From: Candidatus Oxydemutatoraceae bacterium
Lineage (GTDB): Bacteria > Pseudomonadota > Gammaproteobacteria > Poriferisulfidales > Oxydemutatoraceae
DNA: 64,000 bases
Direction: 5' to 3'
NCBI GenBank assembly: GCA_965219575.1
Contig: OZ244779.1
Span: 1,708,769-1,772,768 of the forward strand
The notes under the pieces are model-generated. The model had not been told where the DNA came from and made no database searches. It worked only from the letters and a program-made list of their open reading frames with translations. Shown piece after piece: positions 43,989 to 60,534 of this stretch; positions within the stretch are counted from its first letter, which is position 1; each line of letters begins with the position of its first letter. The translations under genes and the position numbers were made by a program.

Positions 43989-44075
43989 AAGTTTTAGTTT
44001 CCAAGTAGTTTGTTGTACTGCCGCTACTTTTTCAACAGCTTCATTTCCCCTATCTTTTGGTTTAGAGCGACGCAA

Positions 44076-44172
44076 CAAAAAAGCCGCCCGTAGGCGGCCT
44101 TTTGAATGTTGCATATTCACACTTATTAATCCTGATACAAAAATCGTTAATGTGGAATCCCTAATTCAATTT
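44076..44172 (-). ncRNA. tracrRNA (predicted, about 96 nt)
   Basis: Plus strand carries TCCTGATAC (44130-44138) and CCCTAATTCAAT (44159-44170), matching the crRNA-sense repeat, so the minus strand is the anti-repeat. It is followed by AAG, a UGAAU...AUUCA hairpin and a terminator, and is divergent from cas9. Confidence 0.85.
44077..44098 (-). terminator. Intrinsic terminator of tracrRNA
   Basis: Minus strand GCCGCC-TACG-GGCGGC followed by TTTTTT. Confidence 0.85.
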
Positions 44173-44176
44173 TTCC

Positions 44177-44205
44177 AGCGTAGCACACCTTGAATTAAAA
44201 AGCAA
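44177..44205 (-). promoter_or_regulatory. Putative sigma70 promoter for tracrRNA
   Basis: Minus strand TTGCTT-17 nt-TACGCT with extended -10 TG, ending 6 nt before the anti-repeat. Confidence 0.6.
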
Positions 44206-44292: not shown

Positions 44293-47200
44293 ATGGGAAT
44301 TAAATATCGCTTAGGGCTGGATGTCGGTGCCAATTCACTCGGCTGGAGTGTGCTGAAACTAGACACGGATGATAAACCTTATAAAATAGAAAATGCCGGT
44401 GCACGCATTTTCTCCGACGGACGAGAACCTAAAGGCCATAGTACCTTGAAGGCAGTCAGGAGAACAGCACGATCCGCCCGCCGAAATAGAGACAGATTCA
44501 AACAGCGACAGACCTATTTAATAAAAGAACTTGAAAAGGCTAAATTGTTTCCGCCGGAATCCGATACTGCGACGCGCCACGCTATACAAAAACTTGACCC
44601 TTTAGAATTGCGGGCTAATGCGCTGCATGAAAAGCTAGACCCCTACCATATAGGTCGTGCATTATTTCATATAAATCAACGTCGCGGTTTTAAGAGCAAC
44701 CGCAAAGACACCAGCGAAGAGGCTAGAAGCGGTAAGGTCAGTAAATCCGTGATGGCACTATTCAAGAAAATGGGTTTAGTCCAACAAAGTTCTATCCTCG
44801 ATGAACCAGAAAAGCTCTCTGAAGAACAAAACAAATGGATCCGACAAGAGGAAGCCAAACAAAAAAAAGAAGCAATCACTAAATTAAAAGATTTAGACAT
44901 TACTTTTGGTTCGTTTTTGTGGGAACGACGCAAACAACACCCGCCACAGGCAACCCGTGCTCATCCCAACGTAGATGGCAAGTTATACGATCTTTATCCG
45001 ACCCGAGATCTATTAGAAGACGAATTTGACAAAATCTGTGCTAAACAACAAAAATATCACCCAAAACTTTTAAGCGCGGAAGTCGTCAAACATTTGAGAA
45101 AAATTATATTTTATCAGCGACCCTTGAAACCCCAAGAGCGCGGCAAATGTGCTTATCTGTATAAGGCAGGAGAACTCCGCGCTTTCCGAGCAATGCCGAG
45201 CTTTCAACGCTATCGCATCTATCAAGAAGTTAATAACTTGGAATGGGCCGGTCCGAGACAACCATATCGTTTGAGAGATTACCCCGAAGCAAGGGATGCC
45301 GTCGTGACACTATTAGAGAAACCTACTACTAAAAAAGGCAATGTCACCTTTACTAAAATTAAGAACGTACTTAAAGATCTAGGAGTCGCAGAAGGCGAGT
45401 TCAAATTAAATTACGAAACCTTGAAAAGAAAAAAAACAAAAAGAAAAAAAACAAAAAGTAAAAAAAACGAAAAGCAAAAAAAAGACTCGTCAGGTTTGGA
45501 CGGCAATCTCACCTCTAATATTATGCAAAAAGAAGATTGTATCGGAGCGCAGTGGCACGATTGGCCTATAGAAAAACAAGACTCATTCATTGGACTGATA
45601 TTAAACGATAAGCTCAGCGATGTAGAAGTCCGAGATAAGCTAGTGAAAGAATACAAACTTTCTGAGGAAATAGCTACAGTTTGTCTTGAGGAGCATCTGC
45701 CAGAAGGCACGGCACACCTATCCTTAAAAGCTGCCAAATTGCTCACGGAAAAAATGAAAAATGAATATTGTCTGCAGTCCGAAGCGGTGGAGCGTGTCTC
45801 GGAAGAGCACAGCGACTTTGTTAGTCCATTTATAAGATCTACCGAAGAGGGAAAATTATTAGAACGATTACCCTATTACGGAGAGTTTTTTAAAGATGGC
45901 AAACATATAATTCCGGGAACTCTAGATGAGAAAGATGAGCACGACAACTTAAGATTTTATGGAAGTGTGTCCAACCCGACGGTACACATCGCCTTGAACC
46001 AAATCCGCAATGTAATCAACGAACTGATAAAACGATACGGGAAGCCGACTTCCATTGTTATTGAATTGGGTAGAGAATTGCCGGCAGGTAAAGAAAGACG
46101 TAAAGAGATAAAAAGTGAACAGAAAGAGAACCAAACGAATAATGAAGAGATTGATGCAGAACTTAAAGAACTTGGACAGCTTATAAATAGGGATAACAGA
46201 ATCAGGTTTCGGCTTTGGAAGGAATTGGATGAGGAGGATCCTGCCGGACGCAAATGTCCATTTACGGGAGAAACCATCAATATTCATAAAATATTTAGTG
46301 ATGAAGTTGAAGTTGAACACCTTATTCCTTTTAGCAAGTCATTAGACGATAGTTTCTCTAATAAAGTATTGTGTTTAAGGCGAGCAAACCGAGACAAAAG
46401 GCAACAAACTCCATACGAAGCATTTGGCCATAGTCCAGGTGGTTACAACTGGAATAAGATTTTTGAACGTTCTAAAAGTTTGCCCAAAAGCAAGCAATGG
46501 CGATTTGAAAAAGACGCTATGAAAAAGTGGCATCACAACAACGAGTCCGATTTTCTAGCCCGGCATCTAAACGACACTCGATATATCGGCAGATTAACTA
46601 AAGATTATCTTGAAGCCATTTGTCCGTACAACAAAATTGATGTTGTCACCGGAAGATTGACTGCCCTTCTACGTGGTCATTGGGGATTAAACAGTATTCT
46701 AAAAGAGATACGAACCGATGAAGAACTTAAAAGGCTTGGACAAGAGGCTAGTAAAGATAATAGAGTCAGGTATTGGCTTTGGGAAGAATTAAACGAGGAT
46801 CCCAAAGGGCGCGAATGTCCATTTACAGGGAAGACCATTGTCAAGGACGACATATTTAGTGATGAATTTGAAATCGGATACCTCATTCCTGATAGTACAT
46901 CAAAGTGCGACAGTTTCTCTAATAAAGTGTTATGTTCGGCACAAGCAAAACAAGACAAAGGACAACAAACCCCATACGAGGCATTCGGTCATAGTCCCGA
47001 CGATTACAACTGGAATAATATTCTGCAACGCTCCGAAAGATTGCCTGAAAACAAGCAATGGCGATTTTTAGAAGACGCTATGGAAAAATGGCAGAGCAGA
47101 AATTTTGGTAGCAGCAGCTATAATAAAGCAAAGAAAAGCCGCGACGACCATAGGCATCACGCAATTGATGCCATTGTGATCGGAATGACTACGAGAAGTA

Positions 47201-48087
47201 TTTTACAAAAAGTAGCAACGGCTGCCAACCAATCCGAAGAGTTAGACCTTCCGTCTTTATTTAATAAAAAAGAAAATGGTAAAAGCGCAATTGATCCATG
47301 GCTCGGATTTCGTGCAGATGTGAAAAACATAATAGATAATATCATCGTTTCTCATAGAAAAAGGAACAAACAGTTGGGACAAGGTAACACAAAATTAGGA
47401 CGAGATAGCACAAGCGGACAGCTGCATGATAGTACTGCTTATGGCATAGTAACAAAACATGATAATGAAAAGAGTACGGTTGTGGTGCGCCGACCTATAA
47501 AAGAATTATCGGAAAATAGGAAAAAACTAGGATCTATTCGAGATAAGCATTTGAAAGAACAATTTTTAGATGCGTTTGACGGCAATGGCAAGGAGGGCGT
47601 GATGGTTCTAGCTGAACAGAAAAATATCAGAGGGTTGCGTTGTATTCAGGATTTATCAATCATTCCTATTAAGGATAAAGAAGGACGAGAATATAAGGCT
47701 TTGAAAGGGAATAGTAACTGGGGATACGAAATTTACGAATATCCTGACGAACATGAAAAAGCAGGGGAATGGGTAGGATTTCCTATTTCTACTCATGATG
47801 CCAATCAAAAAAACTTTCAACCGGGTGTAACCCATCGCCCGTATCCAACCGCTAAACTTGTAATGCGTTTGCATATTAATGATTATGTAGAAATTATCGG
47901 AGAAGATGGCTCACCGCAAATCATGCGTCTACAGAAAATTTCAGATAGCCTATCTTTTGTGTCTCCTAACGAAGCAAGCACTACAAAGTTCTCTGGCATG
48001 GGTGCTAGTTCCTTACTAAAAGGCAATGCTCGTAAGGTACATATTAGCCCGACAGGACTTAAAAATTACGATGGCAATTGTAGCTAA
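44293..48087 (+). CDS. cas9: Type II-C Cas9 (1264 aa) with a duplicated, degenerate second HNH domain
   Basis: RuvC-I GLDVGANSLGW, Arg-rich bridge helix, RRGFKSNRK, NPTVHIALNQ, RuvC-II IELGRE, HNH EVEHLIP..NKVL..ANRDK, RuvC-III HHAIDA; AAGGAGG RBS; no csn2 or cas4 in the locus. Confidence 0.97.
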   Translation: MGIKYRLGLDVGANSLGWSVLKLDTDDKPYKIENAGARIFSDGREPKGHSTLKAVRRTARSARRNRDRFKQRQTYLIKELEKAKLFPPESDTATRHAIQKLDPLELRANALHEKLDPYHIGRALFHINQRRGFKSNRKDTSEEARSGKVSKSVMALFKKMGLVQQSSILDEPEKLSEEQNKWIRQEEAKQKKEAITKLKDLDITFGSFLWERRKQHPPQATRAHPNVDGKLYDLYPTRDLLEDEFDKICAKQQKYHPKLLSAEVVKHLRKIIFYQRPLKPQERGKCAYLYKAGELRAFRAMPSFQRYRIYQEVNNLEWAGPRQPYRLRDYPEARDAVVTLLEKPTTKKGNVTFTKIKNVLKDLGVAEGEFKLNYETLKRKKTKRKKTKSKKNEKQKKDSSGLDGNLTSNIMQKEDCIGAQWHDWPIEKQDSFIGLILNDKLSDVEVRDKLVKEYKLSEEIATVCLEEHLPEGTAHLSLKAAKLLTEKMKNEYCLQSEAVERVSEEHSDFVSPFIRSTEEGKLLERLPYYGEFFKDGKHIIPGTLDEKDEHDNLRFYGSVSNPTVHIALNQIRNVINELIKRYGKPTSIVIELGRELPAGKERRKEIKSEQKENQTNNEEIDAELKELGQLINRDNRIRFRLWKELDEEDPAGRKCPFTGETINIHKIFSDEVEVEHLIPFSKSLDDSFSNKVLCLRRANRDKRQQTPYEAFGHSPGGYNWNKIFERSKSLPKSKQWRFEKDAMKKWHHNNESDFLARHLNDTRYIGRLTKDYLEAICPYNKIDVVTGRLTALLRGHWGLNSILKEIRTDEELKRLGQEASKDNRVRYWLWEELNEDPKGRECPFTGKTIVKDDIFSDEFEIGYLIPDSTSKCDSFSNKVLCSAQAKQDKGQQTPYEAFGHSPDDYNWNNILQRSERLPENKQWRFLEDAMEKWQSRNFGSSSYNKAKKSRDDHRHHAIDAIVIGMTTRSILQKVATAANQSEELDLPSLFNKKENGKSAIDPWLGFRADVKNIIDNIIVSHRKRNKQLGQGNTKLGRDSTSGQLHDSTAYGIVTKHDNEKSTVVVRRPIKELSENRKKLGSIRDKHLKEQFLDAFDGNGKEGVMVLAEQKNIRGLRCIQDLSIIPIKDKEGREYKALKGNSNWGYEIYEYPDEHEKAGEWVGFPISTHDANQKNFQPGVTHRPYPTAKLVMRLHINDYVEIIGEDGSPQIMRLQKISDSLSFVSPNEASTTKFSGMGASSLLKGNARKVHISPTGLKNYDGNCS

Positions 48088-48116
48088 CACTCTATATTCA
48101 ATAATCAATTTTTTGC

Positions 48117-49031
48117 ATGCCCGACCAAATCGTTGAAATTACGCAACCGGGTTATTGGTTGAGTAAGTCACGCGGATTTCTAGAAGTTCAAAGCAACGAT
48201 GAAAACCAAATCGGTGGAAAGATACCATTAGACGATATTCTATCGGTTGTTATTTCTACTCCGGGATGTTCTCTATCAACCGTTCTCATAGATTACCTGA
48301 GTCGTCGCAATATCCCCATTACGATATGCGGAGCAAACTACCTCCCCACAACGCTCATCTTACCGATAGACGGTTACAATAGACAATTCCAAGTCATGCA
48401 AAGCCAAACCGATTTATCGGCACCGCGCCGTAAGCGCGCATGGCAAGCTATAGTCAGAGCCAAAATACAAAATCAAGCCGATTTACTGGAGTTTGTCGGC
48501 AAAAATAATATGCAATTAAAACGCTTAATCTCAAATGTGAAATCCGGCGATATCGATAATTGCGAGGCTCAGGCAGCACGCATTTATTGGCAAAGTTTAT
48601 TCGGCGAAGATTTTCGTCGTGACCGCACCGCTATCGATTTGAATACTCCGCTCAACTATATTTACACGGTTATTAGAGCGTGTATTGCTCGCGGGATCAG
48701 TAGTGCAGGATTACATCCTACATTCAGCATACACCATAAAAATCCACAAAATGCATTCAACCTCGCCGATGATTTGATTGAACCCTATCGCCCTATTGCC
48801 GATTGCTTTGTTTGGAAGAGATACTTCAATAAATTTGATCGACTGACCCCCGAAGTAAAAGCGTCTTTAACAAGCATCGTAAATCTACAAATCCCTATAG
48901 GAGACGAAGTATCCCCTTTATCGTTGGCTGCCGTTAAGACATGCCGTTCTTACGCAAGCTATTGCCTCAATGAGGCAACAAATATCTTACTTCCTAAACT
49001 ACCTATGTCTTTAGAAATAGGGGCTTTATGA
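48117..49031 (+). CDS. cas1: CRISPR-associated integrase Cas1
   Basis: IPLDDI, EAQAARIYWQSLFG..FRRDR, LNYIY, GLHP..SIHH, NLADDLIEPYRP. Confidence 0.96.
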   Translation: MPDQIVEITQPGYWLSKSRGFLEVQSNDENQIGGKIPLDDILSVVISTPGCSLSTVLIDYLSRRNIPITICGANYLPTTLILPIDGYNRQFQVMQSQTDLSAPRRKRAWQAIVRAKIQNQADLLEFVGKNNMQLKRLISNVKSGDIDNCEAQAARIYWQSLFGEDFRRDRTAIDLNTPLNYIYTVIRACIARGISSAGLHPTFSIHHKNPQNAFNLADDLIEPYRPIADCFVWKRYFNKFDRLTPEVKASLTSIVNLQIPIGDEVSPLSLAAVKTCRSYASYCLNEATNILLPKLPMSLEIGAL

Positions 49032-49372
49032 GTAGTAACCAAAACCATCTAAGCCCGTATCGCATTATGTGGTTATTTGTAATGTTTGACTTGCCCGTAG
49101 GCACTAAAAAAGAGAGAGAGCAGGCGACAAAATTTCGTCAAGGACTTCTTGATTTAGGGTTTGAAATGTCACAATTTTCAGTATACTTAAAATACTGTCC
49201 GTCAAAAGAAAAATCGGAAGTAGTTAGTGACAAAGTCAAAGTTAAAATTCCGATTGGAGGTAAAGTAGATATTCTGATGATAACCGATAAACAGTTTTCA
49301 GGCATGAAAAGATTTTATGCAAAAACCGAAATTAAAAGCAGTGCAAAACCGAAGCAGTTACATATCTTTTGA
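49028..49372 (+). CDS. cas2: CRISPR-associated protein Cas2
   Basis: YRIMWLFVMFDLPV, FRQGLLDLGFEMSQFSVY, ITDKQF; ATGA overlap with cas1. Confidence 0.96.
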   Translation: MSSNQNHLSPYRIMWLFVMFDLPVGTKKEREQATKFRQGLLDLGFEMSQFSVYLKYCPSKEKSEVVSDKVKVKIPIGGKVDILMITDKQFSGMKRFYAKTEIKSSAKPKQLHIF

Positions 49373-50844
49373 TTATTTTTTTCTACGCAATATAGAAAAA
49401 AGTATCACCACAATAACTGCTTCGGCGTTGTCGGATTATACCATTGAATTAGGGGGTATCAGGACAACAAGCGGAATAATGTTTGGATTCGTGATATTGA
49501 TTATACCATTGAATTAGGGGGTATCAGGACAACAACTTCTGATATAAAGTAATAGCCGCCCATGATTATACCATTGAATTAGGGGGTATCAGGACAACGG
49601 AATGTACTGCAGTATTCTAAAAAATACAGATTATACCATTGAATTAGGGGGTATCAGGACAACTCTAGTTTTGATGGGGTAGAAACAGAATTAGATTATA
49701 CCATTGAATTAGGGGGTATCAGGACAACGGACATGTACTAATTAAAGTACTAATTGAAGATTATACCATTGAATTAGGGGGTATCAGGACAACATGACGG
49801 GGCAGGTGCGTATTGCACATAATGATTATACCATTGAATTAGGGGGTATCAGGACAACTACCATGCAAGTACGCAGTACAATAATCATGATTATACCATT
49901 GAATTAGGGGGTATCAGGACAACGGACATGTACTAATTAAAGTACTAATTGAAGATTATACCATTGAATTAGGGGGTATCAGGACAACATGACGGGGCAG
50001 GTGCGTATTGCACATAATGATTATACCATTGAATTAGGGGGTATCAGGACAACTACCATGCAAGTACGCAGTACAATAATCATGATTATACCATTGAATT
50101 AGGGGGTATCAGGACAACATGATTGAGACACACATAATCCATACTATCGATTATACCATTGAATTAGGGGGTATCAGGACAACGATGTTCGTCTTCCAAT
50201 GTATAACATTCAAGATTATACCATTGAATTAGGGGGTATCAGGACAACGATATTCTCCCACGCCTCACGCGCCGACAAGATTATACCATTGAATTAGGGG
50301 GTATCAGGACAACACAAACTACAAATAACACATAAAACCTCAAGATTATACCATTGAATTAGGGGGTATCAGGACAACACAAAGTTTCCGACACCTGAAA
50401 TTGATACTGATTATACCATTGAATTAGGGGGTATCAGGACAACATGAAGGAAGCGAAGGCTTTGGTTAGAAAGGATTATACCATTGAATTAGGGGGTATC
50501 AGGACAACTACTTCATTATCATAAACATAAGGCACTGAGATTATACCATTGAATTAGGGGGTATCAGGACAACGTTTCAGTGCTACTGAGGCGGCGGAGG
50601 GCAGATTATACCATTGAATTAGGGGGTATCAGGACAACCATTACAAGACACTAACGATTTCAAGTTTTGATTATACCATTGAATTAGGGGGTATCAGGAC
50701 AACGCCAATTCTGACTCGTCCATATAAGACAAGGATTATACCATTGAATTAGGGGGTGACGTTCTCCCAAAATTTAGTACTAATGCTTAAAGTTAGTTTT
50801 TCCGATAAACTAGAGAAGTTAAAAACATTACAGGAGAACTTAAC

Positions 50845-51111
50845 ATGAAGAGAAAACGTTTTAGTGAAGAACAAATCATTAAGGCATTAAAGTCAAATCA
50901 AGCCGGCATGAAAGTAATCGATATCTGTCGTGATCTAGGCATCGCCGAACAGACATTTTATCGCTGGCGCAGCAAGTATAATGGCATGGAAGTGGCAGAA
51001 GCTAAACGCCTGCGAGAGCTTGAAGCCGATAATAGCAAGCTCAAGAAGCTATTGGCTGAATCGGTGATGCAGTGTGAAACACTTAAGGAGGTATTATCAA
51101 AAAAGTGGTAA
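50845..51111 (+). CDS. IS3-family transposase OrfA
   Basis: MKRKRFSEEQII..GIAEQTFYRWRSKY..AKRLRELE (HTH + coiled coil); slippery A-AAA-AAG just before stop. Confidence 0.93.
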   Translation: MKRKRFSEEQIIKALKSNQAGMKVIDICRDLGIAEQTFYRWRSKYNGMEVAEAKRLRELEADNSKLKKLLAESVMQCETLKEVLSKKW

Positions 51112-51929
51112 AGCCGGCGCAACGCAAGCAGATTGTCAAAGATCTAGTGAGCGCGGGTCGGCATAGTGAACGCACTGCGTGTGCCCTTGCCAGTATTAGT
51201 CGCACTGCATATCGCTATCAGGGCAACCAAGCTGATAAAGATCGTCAACTGGAAGCTGCGTTATTGGAGAAGGCAAAGCAATATCCACATTATGGCTATA
51301 AGATGTTGCATGCGCTTTTGAAGAGCGAAGGCCGGGTCGTCAATGTGAAGCGTACCTATAGGCTTTATAAGAAGCTCAGGCTCGAATTGAGAACCAAGAA
51401 GCGCAAGAAGCTGTGTCATCCGCGTGGCGTGCCGAAAACACCGGCAACGGTGAATGAGTGCTGGTCAATGGACTTTGTGCATGACCAGTTTAGCGACGGC
51501 AGATGCTTTCGGGTATTGAACATAGTAGATAACTTCAGCCGTGAATGTGTCGGACAGATTGTTGATGTTTCGATCACCGGTCAACGCGTAGCAAACTATC
51601 TATCCGAATTGATAGAATGGCTCGGTGTGAAGCCGGCACGCATCGTCTGCGACAATGGCACCGAGTTTAGATGCAAGGCGATGTTCCACTGGAGCCGAGA
51701 TCAGCAGGTGGAATTGGACTTTATCCAACCCGGCAAACCGACCCAGAATGCCTTTGTAGAAAGTTTCAACGGCAAGTTCCGAGACGGTTGTCTGAACCAG
51801 TTCTGGTTTCGTTCAATAAAAGAGGCGAGAGAGATTATAGAAGCCTGGCGAATAGATTATAATGAAGTGCGTCCGCACAGCGCATTGGGTTATCAACCCC
51901 CAAGTGTATTTGCGGAGGCTATAGCATGA
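51105..51929 (+). CDS. IS3-family transposase OrfB (DDE integrase core)
   Basis: WSMDFVHD, DNGTEF, PGKPTQNAFVESFNGKFRDGCLN, YNEVRPHSALG. Confidence 0.95.
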   Translation: MVKPAQRKQIVKDLVSAGRHSERTACALASISRTAYRYQGNQADKDRQLEAALLEKAKQYPHYGYKMLHALLKSEGRVVNVKRTYRLYKKLRLELRTKKRKKLCHPRGVPKTPATVNECWSMDFVHDQFSDGRCFRVLNIVDNFSRECVGQIVDVSITGQRVANYLSELIEWLGVKPARIVCDNGTEFRCKAMFHWSRDQQVELDFIQPGKPTQNAFVESFNGKFRDGCLNQFWFRSIKEAREIIEAWRIDYNEVRPHSALGYQPPSVFAEAIA

Positions 51930-53943
51930 AAACTAACTTTGTATATGGTAATAAAAATGGGGTAACGTCAGGGGTATCAGGACAACAACTTCGTCCGCAG
52001 ACATCTGATGCGCACAGATTATACCATTGAATTAGGGGGTATCAGGACAACAAACGGTATCTGATAGTGAGGGAGCTTTGGGATTATACCATTGAATTAG
52101 GGGGTATCAGGACAACAAAAGTTCGGGTTGGGTTACTAATTCTGGCGATTATACCATTGAATTAGGGGGTATCAGGACAACTAGCTTGTGCCACTGCCCT
52201 TTTGCGTCACAGATTATACCATTGAATTAGGGGGTATCAGGACAACAAAAAGAGAGGTGAGATATGTTTGGATTTTGATTATACCATTGAATTAGGGGGT
52301 ATCAGGACAACAACTTGCGACCTTCAAAACTAGCCTCATGCGATTATACCATTGAATTAGGGGGTATCAGGACAACAATTTCATAAATATCATGATTTAC
52401 TCCAAAGATTATACCATTGAATTAGGGGGTATCAGGACAACTAGATTATCCGACACCGCTCTGGGATCACTGATTATACCATTGAATTAGGGGGTATCAG
52501 GACAACGCGGGTCGTTATTTAGTTCAGCCACATTATGATTATACCATTGAATTAGGGGGTATCAGGACAACAAACGAACAACATTGCTATCACTATCACC
52601 TGATTATACCATTGAATTAGGGGGTATCAGGACAACAAAATGACCCAAATTAATATCTACCAATCCGATTATACCATTGAATTAGGGGGTATCAGGACAA
52701 CATCATAACACTCCTTATTTATCTAACAAACGATTATACCATTGAATTAGGGGGTATCAGGACAACCAAGAGGAACTTCGGCACCTGTATCTGCTAGATT
52801 ATACCATTGAATTAGGGGGTATCAGGACAACATGACGGGGCAGGTGCGTATTGCACATAATGATTATACCATTGAATTAGGGGGTATCAGGACAACTAAA
52901 AGAAACATTACCATTAAAACTCTCCGGATTATACCATTGAATTAGGGGGTATCAGGACAACCCGACAACCAAACCATAATTTTGCTTATGAGATTATACC
53001 ATTGAATTAGGGGGTATCAGGACAACAAACAAACACAAAACACAAAACACAATACTGATTATACCATTGAATTAGGGGGTATCAGGACAACTCGTACCGC
53101 AGATATATCCCACTGCAACTGGATTATACCATTGAATTAGGGGGTATCAGGACAACAATAGTATCTTTTTTGATAGACAAATACAAGATTATACCATTGA
53201 ATTAGGGGGTATCAGGACAACAAATCATCCACATACTCCACAACATCACCAGATTATACCATTGAATTAGGGGGTATCAGGACAACATCCCGGCACCGCC
53301 ATAGACAACCGCAAGCGATTATACCATTGAATTAGGGGGTATCAGGACAACAGTGCCTCTATTATGGCACTGCATTTACTAGATTATACCATTGAATTAG
53401 GGGGTATCAGGACAACCTCCGGGTTGTCACTAACCAACAACCAGTTGATTATACCATTGAATTAGGGGGTATCAGGACAACTAGTAAATCTCCTGCTGTT
53501 GGTTTAAGATAGGATTATACCATTGAATTAGGGGGTATCAGGACAACACCTCTGTCAAACGAGCTACGTTGCCTTCAGATTATACCATTGAATTAGGGGG
53601 TATCAGGACAACACCTCTGTCAAACGAGCTACGTTGCCTTCAGATTATACCATTGAATTAGGGGGTATCAGGACAACCCCCCCGACCAATTAACGATTAT
53701 AAAATTAGATTATACCATTGAATTAGGGGGTATCAGGACAACTACCAACCACAGAATAAAAAATTTTCGTCATGCGTAAAGGCAAACTCATGTGCGATTC
53801 TAGATTTATGGTTACCTAAACCCCACGGACAAATGCACTAGTTTGCCTCACGCATGACGAAAGAAAATTAATTAACTCTAAATATCCTGTTTAGCACTCC
53901 AGTCTTGCCTGATTTATGAAACCTTTTCACTGCGTTTTTATGT

Positions 53944-54912
53944 CTACCATCGTATAAAATCCTCCTGCTCCCCCTTTGTTGAGGCTTTATTCGTTATCGG
54001 CTGAGAATTGCGCTCCCAGAAAACATTGTCTTTATAGCCCTGTATAGTTGGGTCGGCAGTCGCTTGTTTTAAGCGTTTGACCGCCCAGCAGCAATACTCT
54101 TGGTTGATTTCTATTGCACAGAAGCGTCGCTTTAGTTTGTCGGCGACAACCGCTGTGGTGCCACTCCCGGCAAAAGGATCCAACACAAAATCTCCCGACT
54201 TTGAGCTTGCTAGGATTAATTTTGCGATTAGCTTTTCGGGTTTCTGGGTAGGATGGTCGGTATTCTCTGCCATAGACCAAAACGGAATTGTTATATCGGT
54301 CCATATATTAGACGGATATGTGAGGCGATAATTACCGCTTGCTTCTTGTCTCCAGTCTTTAGGTTTTCCGTTGATTTTATAGGGTGCTATGACTTTGCGT
54401 TTGAGTTTGACCGCTTCTACATCGAAATGATACTGCTCTGAGACAGTGCAGAACCATAGGTCTTCGGTGTTGTTCTTCCAGTTATGCTTAGCACCCCGCC
54501 CTTTTTCTCTTTCCCAGCTAATCCGATTGCGGATATAAAAATGCGACTCTAGAATCGGTGCGACAAGCATAGAGGTTTTCCAATCGGAGCAAACATAAAC
54601 CGTTGCCGTCGGTTTTAGAGTCGGTTTCAATTTATTTATTGCGTCTTCAAACCATCGCCGATAAATATTTGCTTCCTTCACTTTGAAAAGTGTACCGTTG
54701 TAGTTCTTAGATAAATTATAAGGCGGGTCCAAAATCAATAAATCTACAAAATGGCAGGGTAGATACTTTGCAATAGCAAATATATCACCGCAGATAATTT
54801 TTCCATTGATCTGTTTGACACTAGACTTAGTGCTTAAACGATGGACTCCGCGTAGCAGTGTTTTTATTTCCTTGGGGTCGCAGTTTAAGGTTCGGTTTCT
54901 CACGATAATCAA
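53944..54912 (-). CDS. Site-specific DNA methyltransferase (N6A/N4C, beta class)
   Basis: DPPYN precedes HPTQKP..LDPFAGSGTT (beta-class motif order); no cognate endonuclease seen. Confidence 0.92.
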   Translation of the reverse strand: MIIVRNRTLNCDPKEIKTLLRGVHRLSTKSSVKQINGKIICGDIFAIAKYLPCHFVDLLILDPPYNLSKNYNGTLFKVKEANIYRRWFEDAINKLKPTLKPTATVYVCSDWKTSMLVAPILESHFYIRNRISWEREKGRGAKHNWKNNTEDLWFCTVSEQYHFDVEAVKLKRKVIAPYKINGKPKDWRQEASGNYRLTYPSNIWTDITIPFWSMAENTDHPTQKPEKLIAKLILASSKSGDFVLDPFAGSGTTAVVADKLKRRFCAIEINQEYCCWAVKRLKQATADPTIQGYKDNVFWERNSQPITNKASTKGEQEDFIRW

Positions 54913-55442
54913 CTATTAAATTTACTTTGGCATTCCTGATGGCTGTTTGGAATAACATTATAATACAGAGTAAAGTCTTGTGGTTTTGTGAGAGTTTGGT
55001 TGCGCGGATACTTTGGCGCAAGCGGTTATAGACCACCCCGTCAGGCTGCGCCTGCCACCCCTCCAGAGGAGGGGAATTAAATAGTGCAGATATCTAGGGC
55101 TGTTGAAAAATAGAACCGCCGATTGCTCCAGTAGGTCAATCGGCGTAACATTATGCAGAACTGTAACGCGCTGCGTCTGCACAAATAAAGTTGTACACCA
55201 GTTAATTTATGGAAACCAAAACCATACGGCGCAAGCGGCTGCGGCTGTGTAGAACGGTGTTTTACCCTAAATCCGCATTAGATTCCTGCAAGCTCGCATC
55301 CTCTTATATTGCAACACGCTCAGGCAAATTACCAATGCACCCATTGGGTGAAACAGTAATTATTAATCATTTTTCACATAAAACTCTCTACAAAGTCTTA
55401 GTTTTTTGTTACTATTTATCAATTAACAATATGGGAGGCATT

Positions 55443-56732
55443 ATGTCAAAACGAAATAAAAAAAAGCGCAAGAAGCAGTACCGGCGGGCACCGTATACGC
55501 TCGGTGTCACTAAAGAGAGATTCACCTCTCGCAGTGGTCTGTTGCCACTCGCTGAATTACTAGAAGCACTTAAAATTAAGCAACAAGCTGATGCCTTGTT
55601 TCCGGCACCGGGGAGCAATTGCAGTTATGACAACAGCACGATCGTCAATACCTTTGTGCTGATGCTCAACGAGGGTGCCAGTTGTCTTGAAGATGTCTAC
55701 CACCTACACACCGAAGCGGAGTTGCTTAAGCTGCTGGGCATTCAAGAGTTGCCGGGAGCAGATACTTTAGCGCAGTGGTTGCATCGTCATGGTGAGGCTG
55801 GCGTGCCGTTAGTTGGCGAAATCAGTCGCCGGGTGGTTGCCGAGACCTTGAAACTGTTGCGAGTAGATCGTGTCACTTTGGACATCGACGCAACAGCCAT
55901 TTTGAATAATAAGTCAGGTGATCATTGGACTTATCTGAAGCATCGAGGTTATATGCCGATGATCGGCATCATAGCGCAAAGTGGTCAGGTCATCGCCGCA
56001 GAGTTCCGTGACGGGAATGTTCCACCAAGCTATGATAATGCCGGTTTTATTGAAAAGTGCCAAGATCAGTTGTTGGCGGCAGGGATCGTCGTTGGGCGCG
56101 TGCGTTCGGACTCGGCGAGTTATCAAAAAGTAATCATTGAAGGTCTAGCCCATCGAGACATTGAGTTTATTATTCGTGCCAAACTGGATACTGCAATCAA
56201 GACGGTGATTGCTTCAGTGTCGGCAACGGATTGGAAACCGTTGCGCTTACGAGACGGCAGCCTATCGCAACACCAATGGGTCGCTCGTCGCACCCACATT
56301 ATGCACAACAGCGACACCCTATTTAATCTCATCATGCAACGCTGCCGTAAGAGCGAAGTTGCCGACTTGCCTGAGCAGAGAGAGTTGCCGGGACTGTCTA
56401 TAGAAACGCGATACGAAACTGATCAGTATATCTATCGTGTCATTGCGACTAATATTGAAGGGCTAGACGACTCGCAGATCGTCCACGAGTATAATCAGCG
56501 TGGCGAGTGTGCGGAGAACCGCATTAAGGAGCTCAAATCGGACTTTTCGGCAGGTCGTCTGCCATGTAGTGATTTTGGTGCCAATGCCCTGTATGTTGCT
56601 GTGTGTGCGTTAGCCTACAATGTGTTTGCACTGTTGCGTTGTGGCTTACCGACAGAGTTTCGTTTTGCCAGAGCACCGACGCTGCGAGTGCGGTTGTTTG
56701 GTCTGGCGGCAAAGGTTGTGCGACACGGGTGA
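55443..56732 (+). pseudogene. IS1380-family DDE transposase, C-terminally truncated
   Basis: TSRSGL, LDIDAT, GYMP, FRDGN, RSDSASY, YNQRGECAENRIKELK, FGANA; GGAGG RBS before 55443. TGA at 56730 is followed in frame by HGMLKLHNAH, then the MITE, then YKLLKRVL...LLH* (57146). Confidence 0.85.
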
Positions 56733-56762
56733 CACGGGATGCTCAAACTACACAACGCACAT

Positions 56763-57055
56763 GGGACTGTTGAAAAAGTATTTCATAGAGTGGTAGGGGC
56801 GGACTTTATTAAATTGCCGATTGACCTACCGGCTCAATCGGCGGCTCTGTTCTGCCTGTAACGCGTTGCGCCTGCACAATTTATACATTCATCCAATTTA
56901 TGGACACTAAAACTAAATGGCGCAAGCGGTTACGGCTGTGCAAAACGTTATCGTTTTGGGCAGACACACAGGTCTGCCCCTACGACTTTGTGGTTATCAT
57001 ACATGTGGTGCAAAGCGGTTGGATTCGTGCAAAACGGTACTTTTTCAACAGTCCC
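56763..57055. mobile_element. REP-bearing MITE (293 bp) nested in IS1380
   Basis: IR GGGACTGTTGAAAAAGTA / TACTTTTTCAACAGTCCC; ACAT target duplication; REP at 56958-56983. Confidence 0.9.
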
Positions 57056-57444
57056 ACATTACAAATTGTTAAAGAGAGTTCTCGCACACTTCCACGGCAT
57101 TCTGGGCAGGCTATTGTCTGAGGTGCGATACCCGTTGCTACATTAAGACCAGTCATTCTATCTCGTTGCCATTGACAATGCATCATTCAAAGTAGATGCC
57201 ATACCCGAACCTACCCCAATTCGAGGGAGCAGAGCATTTTTGAGGTTCACTGGGGTCTAAATGGAAGTTTATTCCTCTTAGCCGAACAAATATGTAGCGT
57301 AAAATTCCAGATTGAGGTGATTGACCTGACAATTTAGCAGAAAATTATCCATCCCATACGCTTTTCATACCCCATTGCGGATTTAGGGCGCATCTACGAC
57401 TACCCCGTCAGGCAAAGCCTTGAACCTCTCCCAAAAAGGGAAAT

Positions 57445-57653
57445 GGGGCTGTTGAAAAAGTGCGGCATCGTACGAATCCAATCACTTGCGCCATTTGGTT
57501 TTGGTTTCCATAAATTGGATGGATGAATGTATAAATCGTGTAGACACAACGCGTTATGGGCGGACATGCTAGTCCGCCCCTACGGGTGGTTTGCAAATAT
57601 TCACAGCGCAAGCGGTCACGATTGCGCCGTGACGATACTTTTTCAACAGCCCC
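57445..57653. mobile_element. REP-bearing MITE (209 bp)
   Basis: IR GGGGCTGTTGAAAAAG; AAAT target duplication; REP at 57558-57583. Confidence 0.88.
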
Positions 57654-57740
57654 AAATAATGATTCGAGTCAATTCGCTCGCGCAGACATTATAGTAGAAT
57701 AGTTCCTTATTTTCTCGCTGAAAACACGAACTATTCAATT

Positions 57741-59045
57741 ATGGCAGAGGCAAAAATCACTTATCAACACGGTATCGCATCGAACCGATTGCAGTTCACA
57801 CATCTATTGCTACAAGTATTCTTTGTCGGCATGGCATGGGGGGTGATGCGTACCGTCGTACCGGTACTAGCCGAAACCGAATTCGGAAAGCCGGAGGACG
57901 CTTTTACTTTACTCTCCGCATTTGTCATTACATTTGGTTTCGTCAAAGGAACATTAAACTTTGTTGCCGGTCGCCTTTCCGAGCGGATGGGACGCAAATC
58001 GATTTTAATCGCCGGCTGGATAACCGCACTGCCGGTGCCGTGGATGATCTTTTATGCGCCCGGCTGGAATTGGATTATTGCTTCTACGATATTACTCGGC
58101 ATCAATCAAGGTTTGTGCTGGTCCATGACGCAGACCTCTAAAATGGATATCACGCATCTGAATCAACGAGGGCTCGCCATAGGTTTGAACGAATTTGCCG
58201 GCTATTTGGGAGTTGCCGTCGCCGGTGTGGTCACCGGTTATCTATCCGAACTGCTACCACCGCGCGAGGCATTATTATTTTTCGGGATTGTGGTTATTTC
58301 ATCGGCGTTAATATTCGCTTGGGTTTGGGTACTAGAAACGCTGCCGTGGATGCACACCGAAGCGCGCAGCCGGCAGAAGGAAAATAATATACACCGATAC
58401 TTCTACGGTTCTCGTTCAATCTCCGACACACCGACTACTCGGGAAGTCTTTGTTTGGGTGAGTTGGCAAGATCGCAGAATGGTGGCTTTTAGCCAAGCCG
58501 GATTGATAGAAAAATTCGTAGACACGCTCATCTGGGTATTCTACCCGGTCTACCTATACGAACAGGGTTTGAGCTTGTTCCATATCGGCATCGTCGTCGG
58601 CATTTACGGCTTCGTCTGGGGAACACTGCAAACCGTCACCGGAAAACTTTCCGACCAGATCGGGCGTATGAAGCCGATCGTTTCCGGAATGTGGATTTGT
58701 GCCGTCGGTGTTGCAATGAAATTGTACGGCGACGACATACTATGGTGGTGTTTCAGCGCAGCGATCACCGGACTGGGCATGGCTTTGCTGTATCCCAATT
58801 TGAGTGCTGCCGTCAACGACATCAGCCATCCGAATTGGCGCGGCTCGGCTATCGGCGTTTATCGGTTCTGGCGTGATCTGGGATACGGAGTCGGTGCGCT
58901 CATTTTGGGTTTGACCGCCGATATCCACGGTGCGATTACGAGTACTTTCTGGGTGGTCATTGTATCTATGTTTTTGTCCGGCTTGTTCGTGTGCTATTGG
59001 GGACAAGAAACCTTACCCAAGCTACGCAAGGCGGTGCTCGATTAG
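57741..59045 (+). CDS. MFS transporter
   Basis: About 12 hydrophobic segments; motif A GRLSERMGRK and GKLSDQIGR; WRGSAIGVYRFWRDLGY. Confidence 0.9.
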   Translation: MAEAKITYQHGIASNRLQFTHLLLQVFFVGMAWGVMRTVVPVLAETEFGKPEDAFTLLSAFVITFGFVKGTLNFVAGRLSERMGRKSILIAGWITALPVPWMIFYAPGWNWIIASTILLGINQGLCWSMTQTSKMDITHLNQRGLAIGLNEFAGYLGVAVAGVVTGYLSELLPPREALLFFGIVVISSALIFAWVWVLETLPWMHTEARSRQKENNIHRYFYGSRSISDTPTTREVFVWVSWQDRRMVAFSQAGLIEKFVDTLIWVFYPVYLYEQGLSLFHIGIVVGIYGFVWGTLQTVTGKLSDQIGRMKPIVSGMWICAVGVAMKLYGDDILWWCFSAAITGLGMALLYPNLSAAVNDISHPNWRGSAIGVYRFWRDLGYGVGALILGLTADIHGAITSTFWVVIVSMFLSGLFVCYWGQETLPKLRKAVLD

Positions 59046-59054
59046 GTTAATCGG

Positions 59055-59141
59055 CGGAGAGGGAGGGATTCGAACCCCCGGATCGCTTGCGCGATCTTCG
59101 GTTTTCAAGACCGATGCCTTCGACCACTCGGCCACCTCTCC
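59055..59141 (-). tRNA. tRNA-Ser(TGA)
   Basis: GGAGAGG acceptor stem, GAGTGG D-loop, CTTGAAA anticodon loop, long variable arm GATCGC-GCAA-GCGATC, GGTTCGAATCC T-arm, discriminator G followed by CCG. Confidence 0.95.
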
Positions 59142-59362
59142 GAAAGAACTTTAGGAAGTTATAAAAGAATACTACATAATCGTCGCCTAATCCAAAGGAA
59201 AAGAATAAATTGTGCAGAACTCCGGGGCTGTTGAAAATGTATTTCATAGAGTGGTAGGGGCAGTATAAATTCACGGCGCAAGCGGTTACGGTTGCACGCT
59301 GACGATACTTTTTCACAGTCTCATGTGCCGACACAATGTATAAGGACAGCCACTTTGCGTTG

Positions 59363-60304
59363 TTATTTGAGCCGTTTAATCTCCTCAGCGGATAAACCCG
59401 TCACTTCGGAAATCAACGAAACCTCCAGACCCTTTTGCAACATATTCAAGGCGATATTTCGAACCTCTTTAACCCTACCTTGTTCAATGCCTTGTTCAAT
59501 GCCTTCTTCTATCAGCCCTTCCCTTTCCAAGTTGTATTCCAGCTTGTATCTGTCGTGGGCTATAGAATCCCACAGATCTATCTCCTCCTCCGATACCTTC
59601 GCTAAATGCTCTAATGCCATCTTTATCTCTCCGTCTTGTGATAAATGCGCTACCTGCTCGGGTGTCAAGTCCTTTGAATGTTTCATAATATAGCACCACC
59701 TATCGGCCATATCAACTAGCTCTAAGTAGCTCTTATTAAATTTGTTTAGTTCCACTATCATTATCGTTAAATCCATCTTGAGTTTCTTATTCAGATGCTT
59801 AATCGATTTGATTTCTAGTTGGTCTATATGTTCGTCCGTGTCGCCAAATACCGTGAAGTCGGTGAATGCCAGCAAGTAGGTCGGACTAATCTTGCTATAC
59901 TTTTGTCCACGATTTACGACATGCGTATGCAACTGTGCCCAATAGAGCAACATTCTACCCAGGAAGTGTTTCTCACGATAGACCTGCATTTCTATGCTAA
60001 CATTCTCGCCACTATTCAATTTGACATTGAGGTCTAGTACGACTTGCTTGCCGTCCGGCGTGTTCGGTGGGATGACACTGTCTTCCAGATGCAACTTATC
60101 GTCCGATTGACTCTGTGGTTGCTTTGCAGACTCGGACTCTGTGTTGTTTTTTTCAGGGTTCAGTATCACCATATCCGAGGCATTATCGGAGATCGGCAGG
60201 AAGCTCTTGATCAGCGAGAGCAGTACCTGTTTATTAGTTGAGAAGTATCGTTTGAAGACGCGGTCTTTGGTCAGTGGTAAATATTTTCTCTGTTCTTTGT
60301 TCAT
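59363..60304 (-). CDS. Rpn-family / PD-(D/E)XK nuclease-like putative transposase
   Basis: DRVFKRYF, LDLNVKL..IEMQV, RMLLYWA, VELNKF, EEGIEQGIEQG, IALNML..ISEVTGLSAEEI; GGAGG RBS. Confidence 0.88.
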   Translation of the reverse strand: MNKEQRKYLPLTKDRVFKRYFSTNKQVLLSLIKSFLPISDNASDMVILNPEKNNTESESAKQPQSQSDDKLHLEDSVIPPNTPDGKQVVLDLNVKLNSGENVSIEMQVYREKHFLGRMLLYWAQLHTHVVNRGQKYSKISPTYLLAFTDFTVFGDTDEHIDQLEIKSIKHLNKKLKMDLTIMIVELNKFNKSYLELVDMADRWCYIMKHSKDLTPEQVAHLSQDGEIKMALEHLAKVSEEEIDLWDSIAHDRYKLEYNLEREGLIEEGIEQGIEQGRVKEVRNIALNMLQKGLEVSLISEVTGLSAEEIKRLK

Positions 60305-60534
60305 GAAACCTCCTATAAGTTTTGGTTAAAACTCATAGGGTGAGCGAATATTTAGGGTGTGGGGAAACATTTCGATGAACGGTAGCAGATATTAGATAAA
60401 CGGTAAAATATTGTGCAGATACATGGGGTTATTGGAAAGTACCGTTCTGCACAAATAGCATCGTTTCTTGTTGCATAGAATCGGCACTTGCTCCAGTTGG
60501 GCAAGTGCCGTAACCTCGTACAAAATCTAAATAT

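What the first reader, a model, noticed from the sequence alone, without database searches (positions are those of the whole stretch)
46153..47091. Cas9 with two HNH domains: an intact HNH plus a catalytically substituted copy inserted in RuvC-III
Seen: aa 621-746 (46153-46530) is repeated as aa 809-933 (46717-47091), 81/126 identical by hand alignment. Copy 2 sits between HWGLNSIL and KSRDDHRHHAIDA, which is normally a short RuvC-III loop in II-C Cas9s. Copy 1 keeps E675-H676, N690 and N699 (same spacing as SpCas9 D839/H840/N854/N863). Copy 2 has G862-Y863 and K886, each one base away (GAA>GGA, CAC>TAC, AAC>AAA), and keeps only N877. Copy 2 also loses several basic residues (LRRANRDKR>SAQAKQDKG, several K>E) while the frame and hydrophobic core are retained. 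RuvC motifs, cas1/cas2, tracrRNA and the 47-spacer array all look intact. Established: Cas9s have one HNH, and AcrIIC1 and AcrIIC3 bind the HNH domain of II-C Cas9s. Inference: a retained pseudo-HNH could be a built-in anti-CRISPR decoy (more plausibly for AcrIIC3-type binders, since AcrIIC1 contacts the active site) or an allosteric/fidelity module. I know of no described example but cannot search.
Basis: partly seen in the sequence, partly recalled or inferred. Interest (0 to 1): 0.93.

Follow-up and report, generated by a model that had tools for sequence, protein, structure and literature searches.

The report
Cas9 with a second, dead HNH domain
A CRISPR Cas9 enzyme from uncultured marine sulfur bacteria carries an extra, catalytically disabled copy of one of its two DNA-cutting domains, kept by natural selection in a few related species for a purpose still unknown.

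Summary
The 1264-aa type II-C Cas9 (window 44293-48087) has two Pfam HNH_4 domains: 86.9 and 60 bits, 63% identical to each other. Copy 2 (aa 809-933) sits in a RuvC-III loop that is 12 aa at the median in 144 aligned Cas9s, a few residues before the RuvC His/Asp motif. It is not an assembly error: contigs from two studies span it without a difference. Eight distinct sequences carry it, from 'Candidatus Porisulfidus' MAGs and related ENA assemblies. All copy 2s form one clade (100/100), so the duplication happened once. Copy 2 has G-Y in place of the catalytic E-H in 7 of 8 sequences. Its dN/dS is 0.115-0.150, no higher than the rest of the gene, and it is more conserved than the catalytic copy. 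Two single-HNH relatives, 93% identical outside the loop, nest inside the clade, so the domain is dispensable or exchangeable. I found no other dual-HNH Cas9 in protein, genome or paper searches. The domain most likely works as a non-catalytic accessory module. The anti-CRISPR decoy idea gets no support, and its AcrIIC1 form is contradicted.

The parts
44293..48087 (+). cas9, type II-C, 1264 aa, with two HNH domains
   Evidence: ORF. TIGR01865 scores 690.8 bits against a cut-off of 100. Pfam finds HNH_4 twice, RuvC_III and Cas9_a.
46153..46530 (+). HNH copy 1 (aa 621-746), catalytic residues E675, H676, N690, N699 intact
   Evidence: HNH_4 86.9 bits. Codons checked.
46531..46716 (+). L2 linker and first part of RuvC-III (aa 747-808). 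It lies between the two copies and ends in ...HWGLNSIL KEIRT.
   Evidence: Alignment with the single-HNH relative G044. The RuvC_III Pfam match is split into 2 stretches.
46717..47091 (+). HNH copy 2 (aa 809-933), the degenerate copy inserted in the RuvC-III loop
   Evidence: HNH_4 60 bits. 63% identical to copy 1. dN/dS 0.115-0.150.
46876..46881 (+). Codons G862-Y863 of copy 2, in place of the E-H catalytic dyad
   Evidence: GGA TAC against GAA CAC in copy 1. G-Y is found in 7 of 8 dual-HNH sequences.
46948..46950 (+). Codon K886 of copy 2, in place of the second Asn (N699 of copy 1)
   Evidence: AAA against AAC. Lys is found only in the window and in P0005; the other 6 of 8 sequences have Asn.
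47092..47139 (+). Linker after copy 2 (aa 934-949, ...SRNFGSSSYNKAKKS), probably the remnant of the ancestral loop tail
   Evidence: Comparison of loop sequences.
47140..47172 (+). RuvC-III catalytic motif RDDHRHHAIDA (aa 950-960)
   Evidence: H956 and D959 are invariant in 144 aligned Cas9s. Codons checked.
48117..49031 (+). cas1
   Evidence: Pfam Cas_Cas1, 96.6 bits.
49028..49372 (+). cas2
   Evidence: Pfam CRISPR_Cas2, 49 bits.
49434..50756 (.). CRISPR array, first part: 20 whole repeats plus the left 23 nt of a split repeat
50757..51970 (+). IS3-family insertion sequence inside a CRISPR repeat
   Evidence: ORFs hit HTH_Tnp_1 (81.2 bits) and rve/rve_3. Terminal inverted repeats and GGGG at both joints.
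51971..53742 (.). CRISPR array, second part: the right 16 nt of the split repeat plus 27 whole repeats
44075..44180 (-). tracrRNA candidate: anti-repeat in two parts (44170-44159 and 44138-44130) followed by a terminator hairpin with a U run
   Evidence: Tail fold -27.7 kcal/mol, z -5.8. Conserved in L013 and L014.

Best explanation
One intragenic duplication copied the whole HNH module of a type II-C Cas9 (about 126 aa, from the end of linker L1 to the start of L2). The copy landed in a surface loop of RuvC-III that varies in length and ends about 15 residues before the RuvC His/Asp motif.

The enzyme still cuts with HNH copy 1 and RuvC. Copy 2 lost the catalytic dyad (E-H to G-Y) and had its active-site face remodelled. 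It kept the fold and has been held under purifying selection since.

I read copy 2 as a pseudo-nuclease accessory domain, tethered at the mouth of the RuvC site. It would act there as a steric or electrostatic module that modulates how the non-target strand reaches RuvC, or how HNH copy 1 docks.

Shown: the duplication, its position, the loss of catalytic residues, the selection and the distribution. Inferred: that copy 2 is catalytically dead and that the enzyme is active. Hypothesis only: the gating or docking role.
For: Two HNH_4 hits in one frame occur in the window, in G003 (89 + 65.9 bits) and in G001 (83 + 60.6 bits).

All 7 copy 2s in the tree form one clade (100/100). That clade is sister to the copy 1s of the same Cas9 clade, with weak support of 74/87.

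Within one genome, copy 1 and copy 2 differ by dS 0.78-1.57, against 0.18-0.57 between species. The duplication therefore predates the species splits, and there is no sign of concerted evolution.

dN/dS of copy 2 is 0.137, 0.115 and 0.150 in the three species pairs. Bootstrap upper bounds are 0.25-0.38. Fisher tests of synonymous against non-synonymous change give p = 8.7e-5 to 4.2e-10.

Copy 2 has a mean pairwise identity of 88.4%, against 83.8% for copy 1, in the same 8 proteins.

Copy 2 carries more non-synonymous change than copy 1 relative to the outgroup G044 (dN 0.39-0.43 against 0.31-0.34). It has a long stem (0.34 changes per site) followed by short branches. That is early divergence followed by constraint.

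The 16 columns with no residue shared between the copies include several at or near the active-site face: R640>W, K654>E, F680>D/N and R700>Q/H.

The loop was already long and variable in the nearest relatives (12-46 aa) and has a median of 12 aa in 144 Cas9s.

The system looks alive. RuvC and HNH copy 1 residues are intact. cas1 and cas2 are present. All 47 whole repeats are identical. The arrays of the three species share no spacer: 0 shared among 45, 44 and 8. The locus sits at the same chromosomal place in all three genomes.
Against: Two single-HNH proteins (P0006, P0007) are 93% identical to dual-HNH G001/P0004 outside the loop and nest inside the dual clade. Holding the dual-HNH proteins together as one clade is rejected (p-AU 2.3e-5), although I named that group only after seeing the tree. 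The domain is therefore dispensable or freely exchanged.

Low dN/dS could reflect nothing more than selection against misfolding of an inserted domain.

There is no structural model, no expression data and no biochemistry. Nothing here shows where copy 2 sits in three dimensions, or that it touches DNA, RuvC or copy 1.

P0005 keeps E-H in copy 2, so 'dead' does not hold for all members on that criterion, although P0005 has Lys at the second Asn.

DNA for the dN/dS estimates exists for only three species.
Confidence: 0.45

Rival explanations
1. Tolerated passenger. The duplicate landed in a permissive loop and has no function of its own. It is conserved only because variants that misfold would damage the whole Cas9.
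For: The loop is permissive: it is 12-46 aa and of low complexity in the nearest relatives. P0006 and P0007 lack the domain yet are 93% identical elsewhere. The domain occurs only in a small clade: 8 sequences, with none among the other 116 listed hits, none in the 150 listed, and none in 35 other long open frames.
Against: dN/dS of 0.115-0.150 is as low as, or lower than, the catalytic copy (0.16-0.32) and the rest of the gene (0.16-0.26). Copy 2 is more conserved than copy 1. It has survived without a frameshift or deletion over a copy 1-copy 2 dS of about 0.8-1.6. A useless insert of 145 aa would be expected to shrink in a genome with active recombination at this gene.
Confidence: 0.3
2. 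Built-in anti-CRISPR decoy. Copy 2 soaks up phage inhibitors that bind the HNH domain and so spares the catalytic copy.
For: The fold and much of the surface are kept: 63% identity to copy 1. AcrIIC3 is reported to bind a non-conserved HNH region opposite the active site (PMC6538845 passage), and that side is not where copy 2 lost its catalytic residues.
Against: AcrIIC1 is reported to bind D587, H588, K549, K551, D598, K603 and N616 of the Neisseria HNH (PMC6538845 passage). I could map five of these through the alignments. Of those five, the window's copy 2 keeps 2 (D873, K878), while copy 1 keeps 4 in kind.

A decoy should track copy 1, but the copies evolve independently. Copy 2 is slow-evolving rather than in an arms race. 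A 1:1 decoy in cis can at most double the inhibitor dose needed (inference).

No self-targeting spacer was found for 45 spacers in G000 or for the G003 array, so nothing points to a resident inhibitor.
Confidence: 0.1
3. Copy 2 is still a nuclease, or is one in some members, using non-canonical residues. The enzyme would then have three active sites.
For: P0005 keeps the E-H dyad and the first Asn in copy 2. 6 of 8 sequences keep both Asn residues.
Against: 7 of 8 sequences have Gly and Tyr at the metal-ligand and general-base positions. P0005 has Lys at the second Asn. Several basic residues around the site are replaced in every copy 2. Copy 2 scores lower than copy 1 against HNH_4 (60 against 86.9 bits) and against solved HNH chains (40.5 against 58.4 bits for 5vgb_A).
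Confidence: 0.04
4. Assembly artefact: a collapsed or chimeric repeat.
For: None found.
Against: The copies are only 78% identical in DNA. Logan contigs of 7107 nt (run X1) and 5784 nt (run X2), from two studies, span 45500-47800 with 0 differences and no joints. One of these runs may be the window's own source. Pieces from a third study (X6) bridge both junctions of copy 2. A fourth study (X7) holds a diverged relative with copy 2. Diverged orthologues in G001, G003 and four other protein clusters have the same architecture.
Confidence: 0.01

Closest known systems
Canonical type II-C Cas9 with solved structures (PDB 9ar4/8uza and 6jdq were the best matches; I recall these as Geobacillus and Neisseria meningitidis Cas9, the tool names only 'Cas9')
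   Same: The domain order is RuvC-I, REC, RuvC-II, HNH, RuvC-III, then the C-terminal domains. The RuvC and HNH catalytic residues are the same. TIGR01865 scores 690.8 bits. The locus is cas9-cas1-cas2-array with a tracrRNA candidate upstream.
   Different: The solved enzymes have only a few residues between the ...WNFNK strand and the His motif (alignment). The window has a 146-aa insert there that is a second HNH domain.
Nearest natural single-HNH relatives P0006 (1128 aa) and P0007 (1127 aa), unnamed ENA proteins
   Same: They are 93% identical to dual-HNH G001/P0004 outside the loop, and G001-like along the whole length (85-99% per 100-column window).
   Different: They have a 26-aa acidic, low-complexity loop in place of copy 2, resembling the loop of the outgroup P0008. 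They form a natural 'deletion' control.
Naturally inactivated nuclease domains kept as structural parts of CRISPR effectors or other pseudoenzymes (recalled examples, such as the dead RuvC of transposon-associated Cas12k; not tested here)
   Same: A nuclease fold is retained under selection after the catalytic residues were lost.
   Different: Here the dead domain is an extra copy beside a working one in the same polypeptide. It is not the only copy.
Effectors in which two or more HNH domains act together through oligomers (CBASS Cap5, SPARHA; search listing and abstracts only)
   Same: More than one HNH domain is present in the working assembly.
   Different: Those assemblies gain their HNH domains by oligomerisation of single-HNH proteins, and the domains are active. 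They are not Cas9.

Membership tests
Type II-C Cas9 (TIGR01865 cas_Csn1) | Match to the family model above its curated cut-off | tested here: met
   690.8 bits against a cut-off of 100. The Cas9d model NF049971 scores 132.6, below its cut-off of 375.
Type II-C Cas9 (TIGR01865 cas_Csn1) | RuvC catalytic Asp, Glu, His and Asp in motifs I, II and III | tested here: met
   D10, E591, H955/H956 and D959 are present. E591, H956 and D959 are invariant in 144 aligned Cas9s.
Type II-C Cas9 (TIGR01865 cas_Csn1) | An HNH domain with acidic residue-His, Asn, Asn | tested here: met
   Copy 1 has E675, H676, N690 and N699.
Type II-C Cas9 (TIGR01865 cas_Csn1) | Exactly one HNH domain between RuvC-II and RuvC-III | tested here: not met
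   There are two HNH_4 stretches. The second lies inside RuvC-III.
Type II-C Cas9 (TIGR01865 cas_Csn1) | Locus of cas9, cas1 and cas2 only (no csn2 or cas4), with an array and a tracrRNA | tested here: met
   cas1 and cas2 follow directly, and the array starts 62 nt after cas2. I ran no explicit search for csn2 or cas4. The tracrRNA candidate has a two-part anti-repeat, a terminator, and is conserved in 3 genomes.
Active HNH endonuclease (Pfam HNH_4, PF13395), for copy 2 | Match to the domain model above its cut-off | tested here: met
   60 bits against a cut-off of 22.
Active HNH endonuclease (Pfam HNH_4, PF13395), for copy 2 | General-base His and the preceding acidic metal ligand | tested here: not met
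   G862-Y863 in the window. G-Y occurs in 7 of 8 dual-HNH sequences and E-H only in P0005.
Active HNH endonuclease (Pfam HNH_4, PF13395), for copy 2 | The first and second Asn of the motif | tested here: inconclusive
   The first Asn (N877) is kept in 8 of 8. The second is Lys in the window and P0005 and Asn in the other 6.
Anti-CRISPR decoy (no defined family; a functional class) | Binds an HNH-directed inhibitor and thereby protects the catalytic copy | not testable with these tools
   The only evidence is indirect. Copy 2 keeps 2 of the 5 AcrIIC1 contact positions I could map.

The most novel reading that the evidence does not exclude
This small clade of Cas9 enzymes has evolved a third nuclease-lobe domain. 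It is a selected pseudo-HNH, planted next to the RuvC active site, that regulates the enzyme. It might gate the non-target strand or dock the catalytic HNH and so tune fidelity or cleavage order, or it might blunt HNH-directed inhibitors. That would be a natural example of a nuclease domain duplicated inside Cas9 and put to a new regulatory use.
Probability: 0.4. Interest if true: 0.8.

Novelty: new variant of a known kind. Interest (0 to 1): 0.62.

Why it matters
As far as I could find, Cas9 architecture is described as having a single HNH domain. A natural enzyme that tolerates, and by selection keeps, a folded 126-aa domain in the loop next to the RuvC catalytic histidine shows that this is a permissive insertion site. 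That is of practical interest for engineering domain insertions.

It also offers a natural matched pair, P0006/P0007 against G001/P0004, for asking what an extra domain at that site does to cleavage, fidelity and inhibitor sensitivity.

If the domain has a regulatory role, it would be a new way of controlling Cas9. If it has none, it is a clean case of how an internal duplicate is neutralised and then preserved.

Tried and rejected
Structure. Structure prediction was asked for aa 1-1200 with a 144-row alignment (A2).

Expression. No RNA holder was listed for the stretch.

Further DNA copies. Two scans of JGI metagenome contigs and one of viral contigs with the copy-2 segment found no relative. 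The dN/dS estimates therefore rest on three species.

Spacer targets. No spacer match of 20 nt or more was found elsewhere in G000. Outside the arrays, the G003 array matched only copies of its own inserted IS in G003, G001 and G000. The two halves of the window's array found nothing in the phage collection. In 19 genomes of the family they found only other arrays, weak repeat-like pieces in G002, and two marginal short matches (G017 and G011, E about 0.04-0.05) that I did not follow up. So I have no PAM and no target.

Rfam gave only two sub-threshold matches near the tracrRNA candidate.

Foreign origin of copy 2 was rejected. Its GC (41.1%) and GC3 (37.6%) match the gene as a whole (40.7% and 36.2%), and it groups with the clade's own copy 1.

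Recent or ongoing gene conversion between the copies was rejected for the three genomes with DNA. For P0005 it stays open. There, 4 of 20 diagnostic columns are copy-1-like and cluster within 11 columns around the dyad. That is either a short conversion tract or an ancestral state.

The paper PMC4714946, which I wanted for residues lining the non-target-strand groove, is not held. My statement that this loop lines that groove in SpCas9 is recall only and is not used as evidence. Supplementary files of papers were not consulted.
Full report
OBSERVATION. The window holds a 1264-aa ORF at 44293-48087. It matches the Cas9 equivalog TIGR01865 at 690.8 bits against a cut-off of 100. The internal repeat is real. 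BLASTP of the two segments gives 82/131 identical residues (63%), one gap, E 5e-59. DNA repeats of 242, 44 and 26 nt lie 561-564 nt apart at 77-85% identity. The DNA similarity runs from about 46153 to 46530 in copy 1 and from 46717 to 47091 in copy 2. Pfam HNH_4 (cut-off 22 bits) scores 86.9 bits on copy 1 and 60 bits on copy 2, and the RuvC_III match is split in two. The codons are as reported: GAA/CAC/AAT/AAC for E675, H676, N690 and N699 in copy 1, and GGA/TAC/AAT/AAA for G862, Y863, N877 and K886 in copy 2. D10, E591, H955/H956 and D959 of RuvC are present.

POSITION. Copy 2 lies between ...HWGLNSIL and ...KKSRDDHRHHAIDA. The single-HNH relative G044 has 14 residues there. In 144 aligned Cas9s the loop has a median of 12 aa. 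It is under 20 aa in 129 of them, 20-29 in 6, 41-46 in 2, and 145-148 in the 7 dual-HNH rows. The best solved relatives have only a few residues at this point (alignment). The nearest single-HNH relatives already have long, hydrophilic, partly acidic loops of 12-46 aa, so the site was permissive before the insertion. The insert ends about 15 residues before the invariant H956/D959. Its N-terminal link is about 5 residues and its C-terminal link about 15, rich in Gly, Ser and Lys. In Cas9 both ends of the HNH domain return to RuvC, which makes it a domain that can be inserted into a loop (inference from the known domain order).

DISTRIBUTION. Among 61 related genomes, 17 have a Cas9 match. Only G000, G003 (90% identical) and G001 (82%) match across the whole length. 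The HNH_4 model finds two hits in one open frame in G003 (89 and 65.9 bits, 1279-aa frame) and in G001 (83 and 60.6 bits, 1251-aa frame). G004 and G044 have one hit each, and each of the two Cas9 genes of G011 has one. The public records for G003 and G001 are titled 'MAG: uncultured candidatus Porisulfidus sp.'. A search of papers places that name among sponge-associated and SUP05-type sulfur oxidisers (listing only). In the 5.8-billion-protein collection, region 600-960 gave 5267 hits among the 8000 candidates scored. Of the 120 listed, 4 clusters (P0002-P0005) cover 95-100% of the region and the other 116 cover 54-65%. Cluster look-up adds P0269 (a gene call cut at the N-terminus, dual HNH) and shows that P0270 is the G001 protein. 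That makes 8 distinct dual-HNH sequences.

UNIQUENESS. A profile of HNH domains (A1) searched against 1.84 billion representatives gave 4891 hits. The best 150 listed reach at most 191.7 bits, roughly what one domain gives. 147 of them have one matched stretch. The 3 with two stretches each have a single Pfam HNH_4 domain. A dual-HNH protein whose two copies each scored under about 70 bits would fall below the listed 150, so distant cases are not excluded. In 401 genomes sampled across the phylum, 69 have an HNH_4 match. Only G000 has two in one open frame, and 35 other frames of 900 aa or more have one each. The metagenome and viral scans found no relative of copy 2. Four paper searches found no Cas9 with two HNH domains: 'two HNH domains' (6 papers), 'domain duplication' (3), 'second HNH' (5), and six further phrasings (2). 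I saw only listings and abstracts for these.

ORIGIN AND HISTORY. In a tree of HNH domains the 7 copy 2s form one clade (100/100) on a stem of 0.34 changes per site, followed by short branches. Together with the copy 1s of the same nine-protein clade they form one side of a branch, but only at 74/87 support. Within one genome the copies differ by dS 0.78-1.57 and dN 0.19-0.22, against dS 0.18-0.57 between species for either copy. The duplication is therefore roughly twice as old as the deepest species split sampled, and the copies are not being homogenised. Copy 2 has accumulated more non-synonymous change than copy 1 relative to G044 (0.39-0.43 against 0.31-0.34). Its composition matches the rest of the gene.

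In the tree of the rest of the protein, the single-HNH P0006 and P0007 sit inside the dual clade as sister to G001/P0004 (99% support). Forcing the 7 dual-HNH proteins into one clade costs 72.5 log-likelihood units (p-AU 2.3e-5), although I named that group only after seeing the tree. P0006 is G001-like along its whole length (85-99% per window), including both flanks of the loop. Its 26-aa loop resembles that of the outgroup P0008. P0003 is a mosaic of W-like and G001-like segments. The presence or absence of copy 2 has therefore been exchanged by recombination, or the domain was lost once by replacement.

SELECTION. Nei-Gojobori dN/dS for copy 2 is 0.137 (W-G003), 0.115 (W-G001) and 0.150 (G003-G001). 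For copy 1 it is 0.315, 0.225 and 0.162, and for the rest of the gene 0.259, 0.168 and 0.159. Bootstrap 95% upper bounds for copy 2 are 0.378, 0.253 and 0.323. Synonymous change exceeds non-synonymous change per site with Fisher p = 8.7e-5, 4.2e-10 and 3.2e-8. The three pairs share branches and are not independent. In the 8 proteins, copy 2 averages 88.4% pairwise identity (91.2% without P0005) and copy 1 averages 83.8% (84.0%). In a fourth study's contigs of a diverged relative, the copy-2 piece differs at 11 of 390 positions, while the two pieces upstream differ at 46 of 460 and 56 of 544.

CATALYTIC STATE. G-Y replaces the dyad in 7 of 8 sequences, and P0005 has E-H. The first Asn is kept in 8 of 8. 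The second Asn is kept in 6 and is Lys in the window and in P0005. Every member thus lacks at least one canonical residue. In P0005, 14 of 20 diagnostic columns are copy-2-like, 2 match neither copy, and 4 are copy-1-like. The 4 copy-1-like columns cluster within 11 columns around the dyad. That is either a short conversion from copy 1 or an ancestral state, and protein data alone cannot decide. Sixteen columns have no residue shared between copy 1 (14 sequences) and copy 2 (7 sequences), including R640>W, K654>E, F680>D/N and R700>Q/H. Net charge shifts from -5..+4 to -9..-3.

THE SYSTEM. cas1 and cas2 follow cas9. The array has 47 identical whole repeats, plus one repeat split by a 1214-nt IS3-family element, which gives 47 spacers. 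Read on the minus strand, each repeat ends in a TGGTATAAT box. I read that as repeat-borne promoters of the kind recalled for Neisseria. A tracrRNA candidate on the minus strand upstream of cas9 has a two-part anti-repeat (12 + 9 nt, 20 nt apart). The predicted duplex energy of -28.7 kcal/mol is only slightly better than the best unrelated site at -27.4. It also has a strong terminator (z -5.8) and is conserved in G003 and G001. The three arrays share no spacer. The locus sits next to the same cytochrome bc1 genes in all three genomes. I take the system to be functional, but that is inference.

ASSEMBLY. Contigs from two studies span 45500-47800 with no difference and no joint. One of these runs may be the window's own source. 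Low-depth pieces from a third study bridge both junctions of copy 2.

MECHANISM. Only the anatomy and the selection are shown. I commit to a non-catalytic accessory role at the RuvC mouth, with a confidence of 0.45. My reasons are that the domain is folded, constrained, stripped of its catalytic and several basic residues, and tied by short links next to the RuvC catalytic motif.

The passenger reading (0.3) is kept alive by P0006/P0007 and by the permissive loop.

The decoy reading (0.1) is weak. AcrIIC1 is reported to bind D587 and H588 plus K549, K551, D598, K603 and N616 (passages of PMC6538845 and PMC5859409). I could map five of these through the alignments to solved HNH chains, assuming that the aligned His is H588. 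Of those five, copy 1 keeps four in kind (E675, H676, D686, K691). The window's copy 2 keeps two (D873, K878). K549 and K551 lie outside the aligned stretch. AcrIIC3-type binding opposite the active site is not excluded.

LIMITS. There is no expression evidence, no protospacers, DNA for only three species, and no access to earlier scan notes.

Noticed in passing
window 50757-51970: An IS3-family element (ORFs 50845-51111 HTH_Tnp_1 and 51105-51929 rve) sits inside one CRISPR repeat. It has terminal inverted repeats and GGGG at both joints, and it splits the 47-spacer array in two.
   Followed up: yes
L013:12050-13502 (array of G003): The array of the sister species is also interrupted, by a different IS of about 1.45 kb. 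That IS has at least four more full copies in G003 and diverged copies in G001.
   Followed up: partly
window 45424-45483: An A-rich 15-nt tandem repeat inside cas9 encodes a Lys-rich tract (KRKKTKRKKTKSKKNEKQKK) in the REC lobe. The tract is shorter in G003 and absent in G001 and G044.
   Followed up: no
window 49434-53742, minus strand: Read on the minus strand, every repeat starts GTTGT and ends TGGTATAATC, an extended -10-like box. This suggests crRNAs are made from promoters inside the repeats, so the IS insertion need not silence the array (own reading).
   Followed up: no
window 44130-44170, minus strand: The anti-repeat of the tracrRNA candidate is in two exact parts (12 and 9 nt) separated by 20 nt. 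The arrangement is conserved in G003 and G001. It would put an unusually large bulge in the repeat:anti-repeat duplex.
   Followed up: partly
L015:6727-6763 (G002:C2:199726-199762): G002, of the same genus and with no Cas9 match, has one lone repeat-like sequence (34-37 nt, 89-92% identical). It is not at the syntenic place.
   Followed up: partly
window 44293-49372: The cas operon is lower in GC than the genome: cas9 40.7%, cas2 35.1%, genome 47.0%.
   Followed up: no
window 53944-63988: Downstream of the array lie an N6/N4 DNA methylase (minus strand), a DDE transposase, an MFS transporter, a PD-(D/E)XK transposase-family protein, and a 959-aa protein with GLUG and cadherin-like repeats.
   Followed up: no
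G000:C1:201305-201448 (outside the window): A stand-alone ORF of 211-216 aa with an HNH_4 match (about 29-32 bits) is present in G000, G001, G003 and G004.
   Followed up: no
P0005 (ENA protein, 1258 aa), copy 2: This is the one dual-HNH Cas9 whose second HNH keeps the E-H dyad, though it has Lys at the second Asn. It also has a 3-aa insertion and a longer branch than the other copy 2s.
   Followed up: partly
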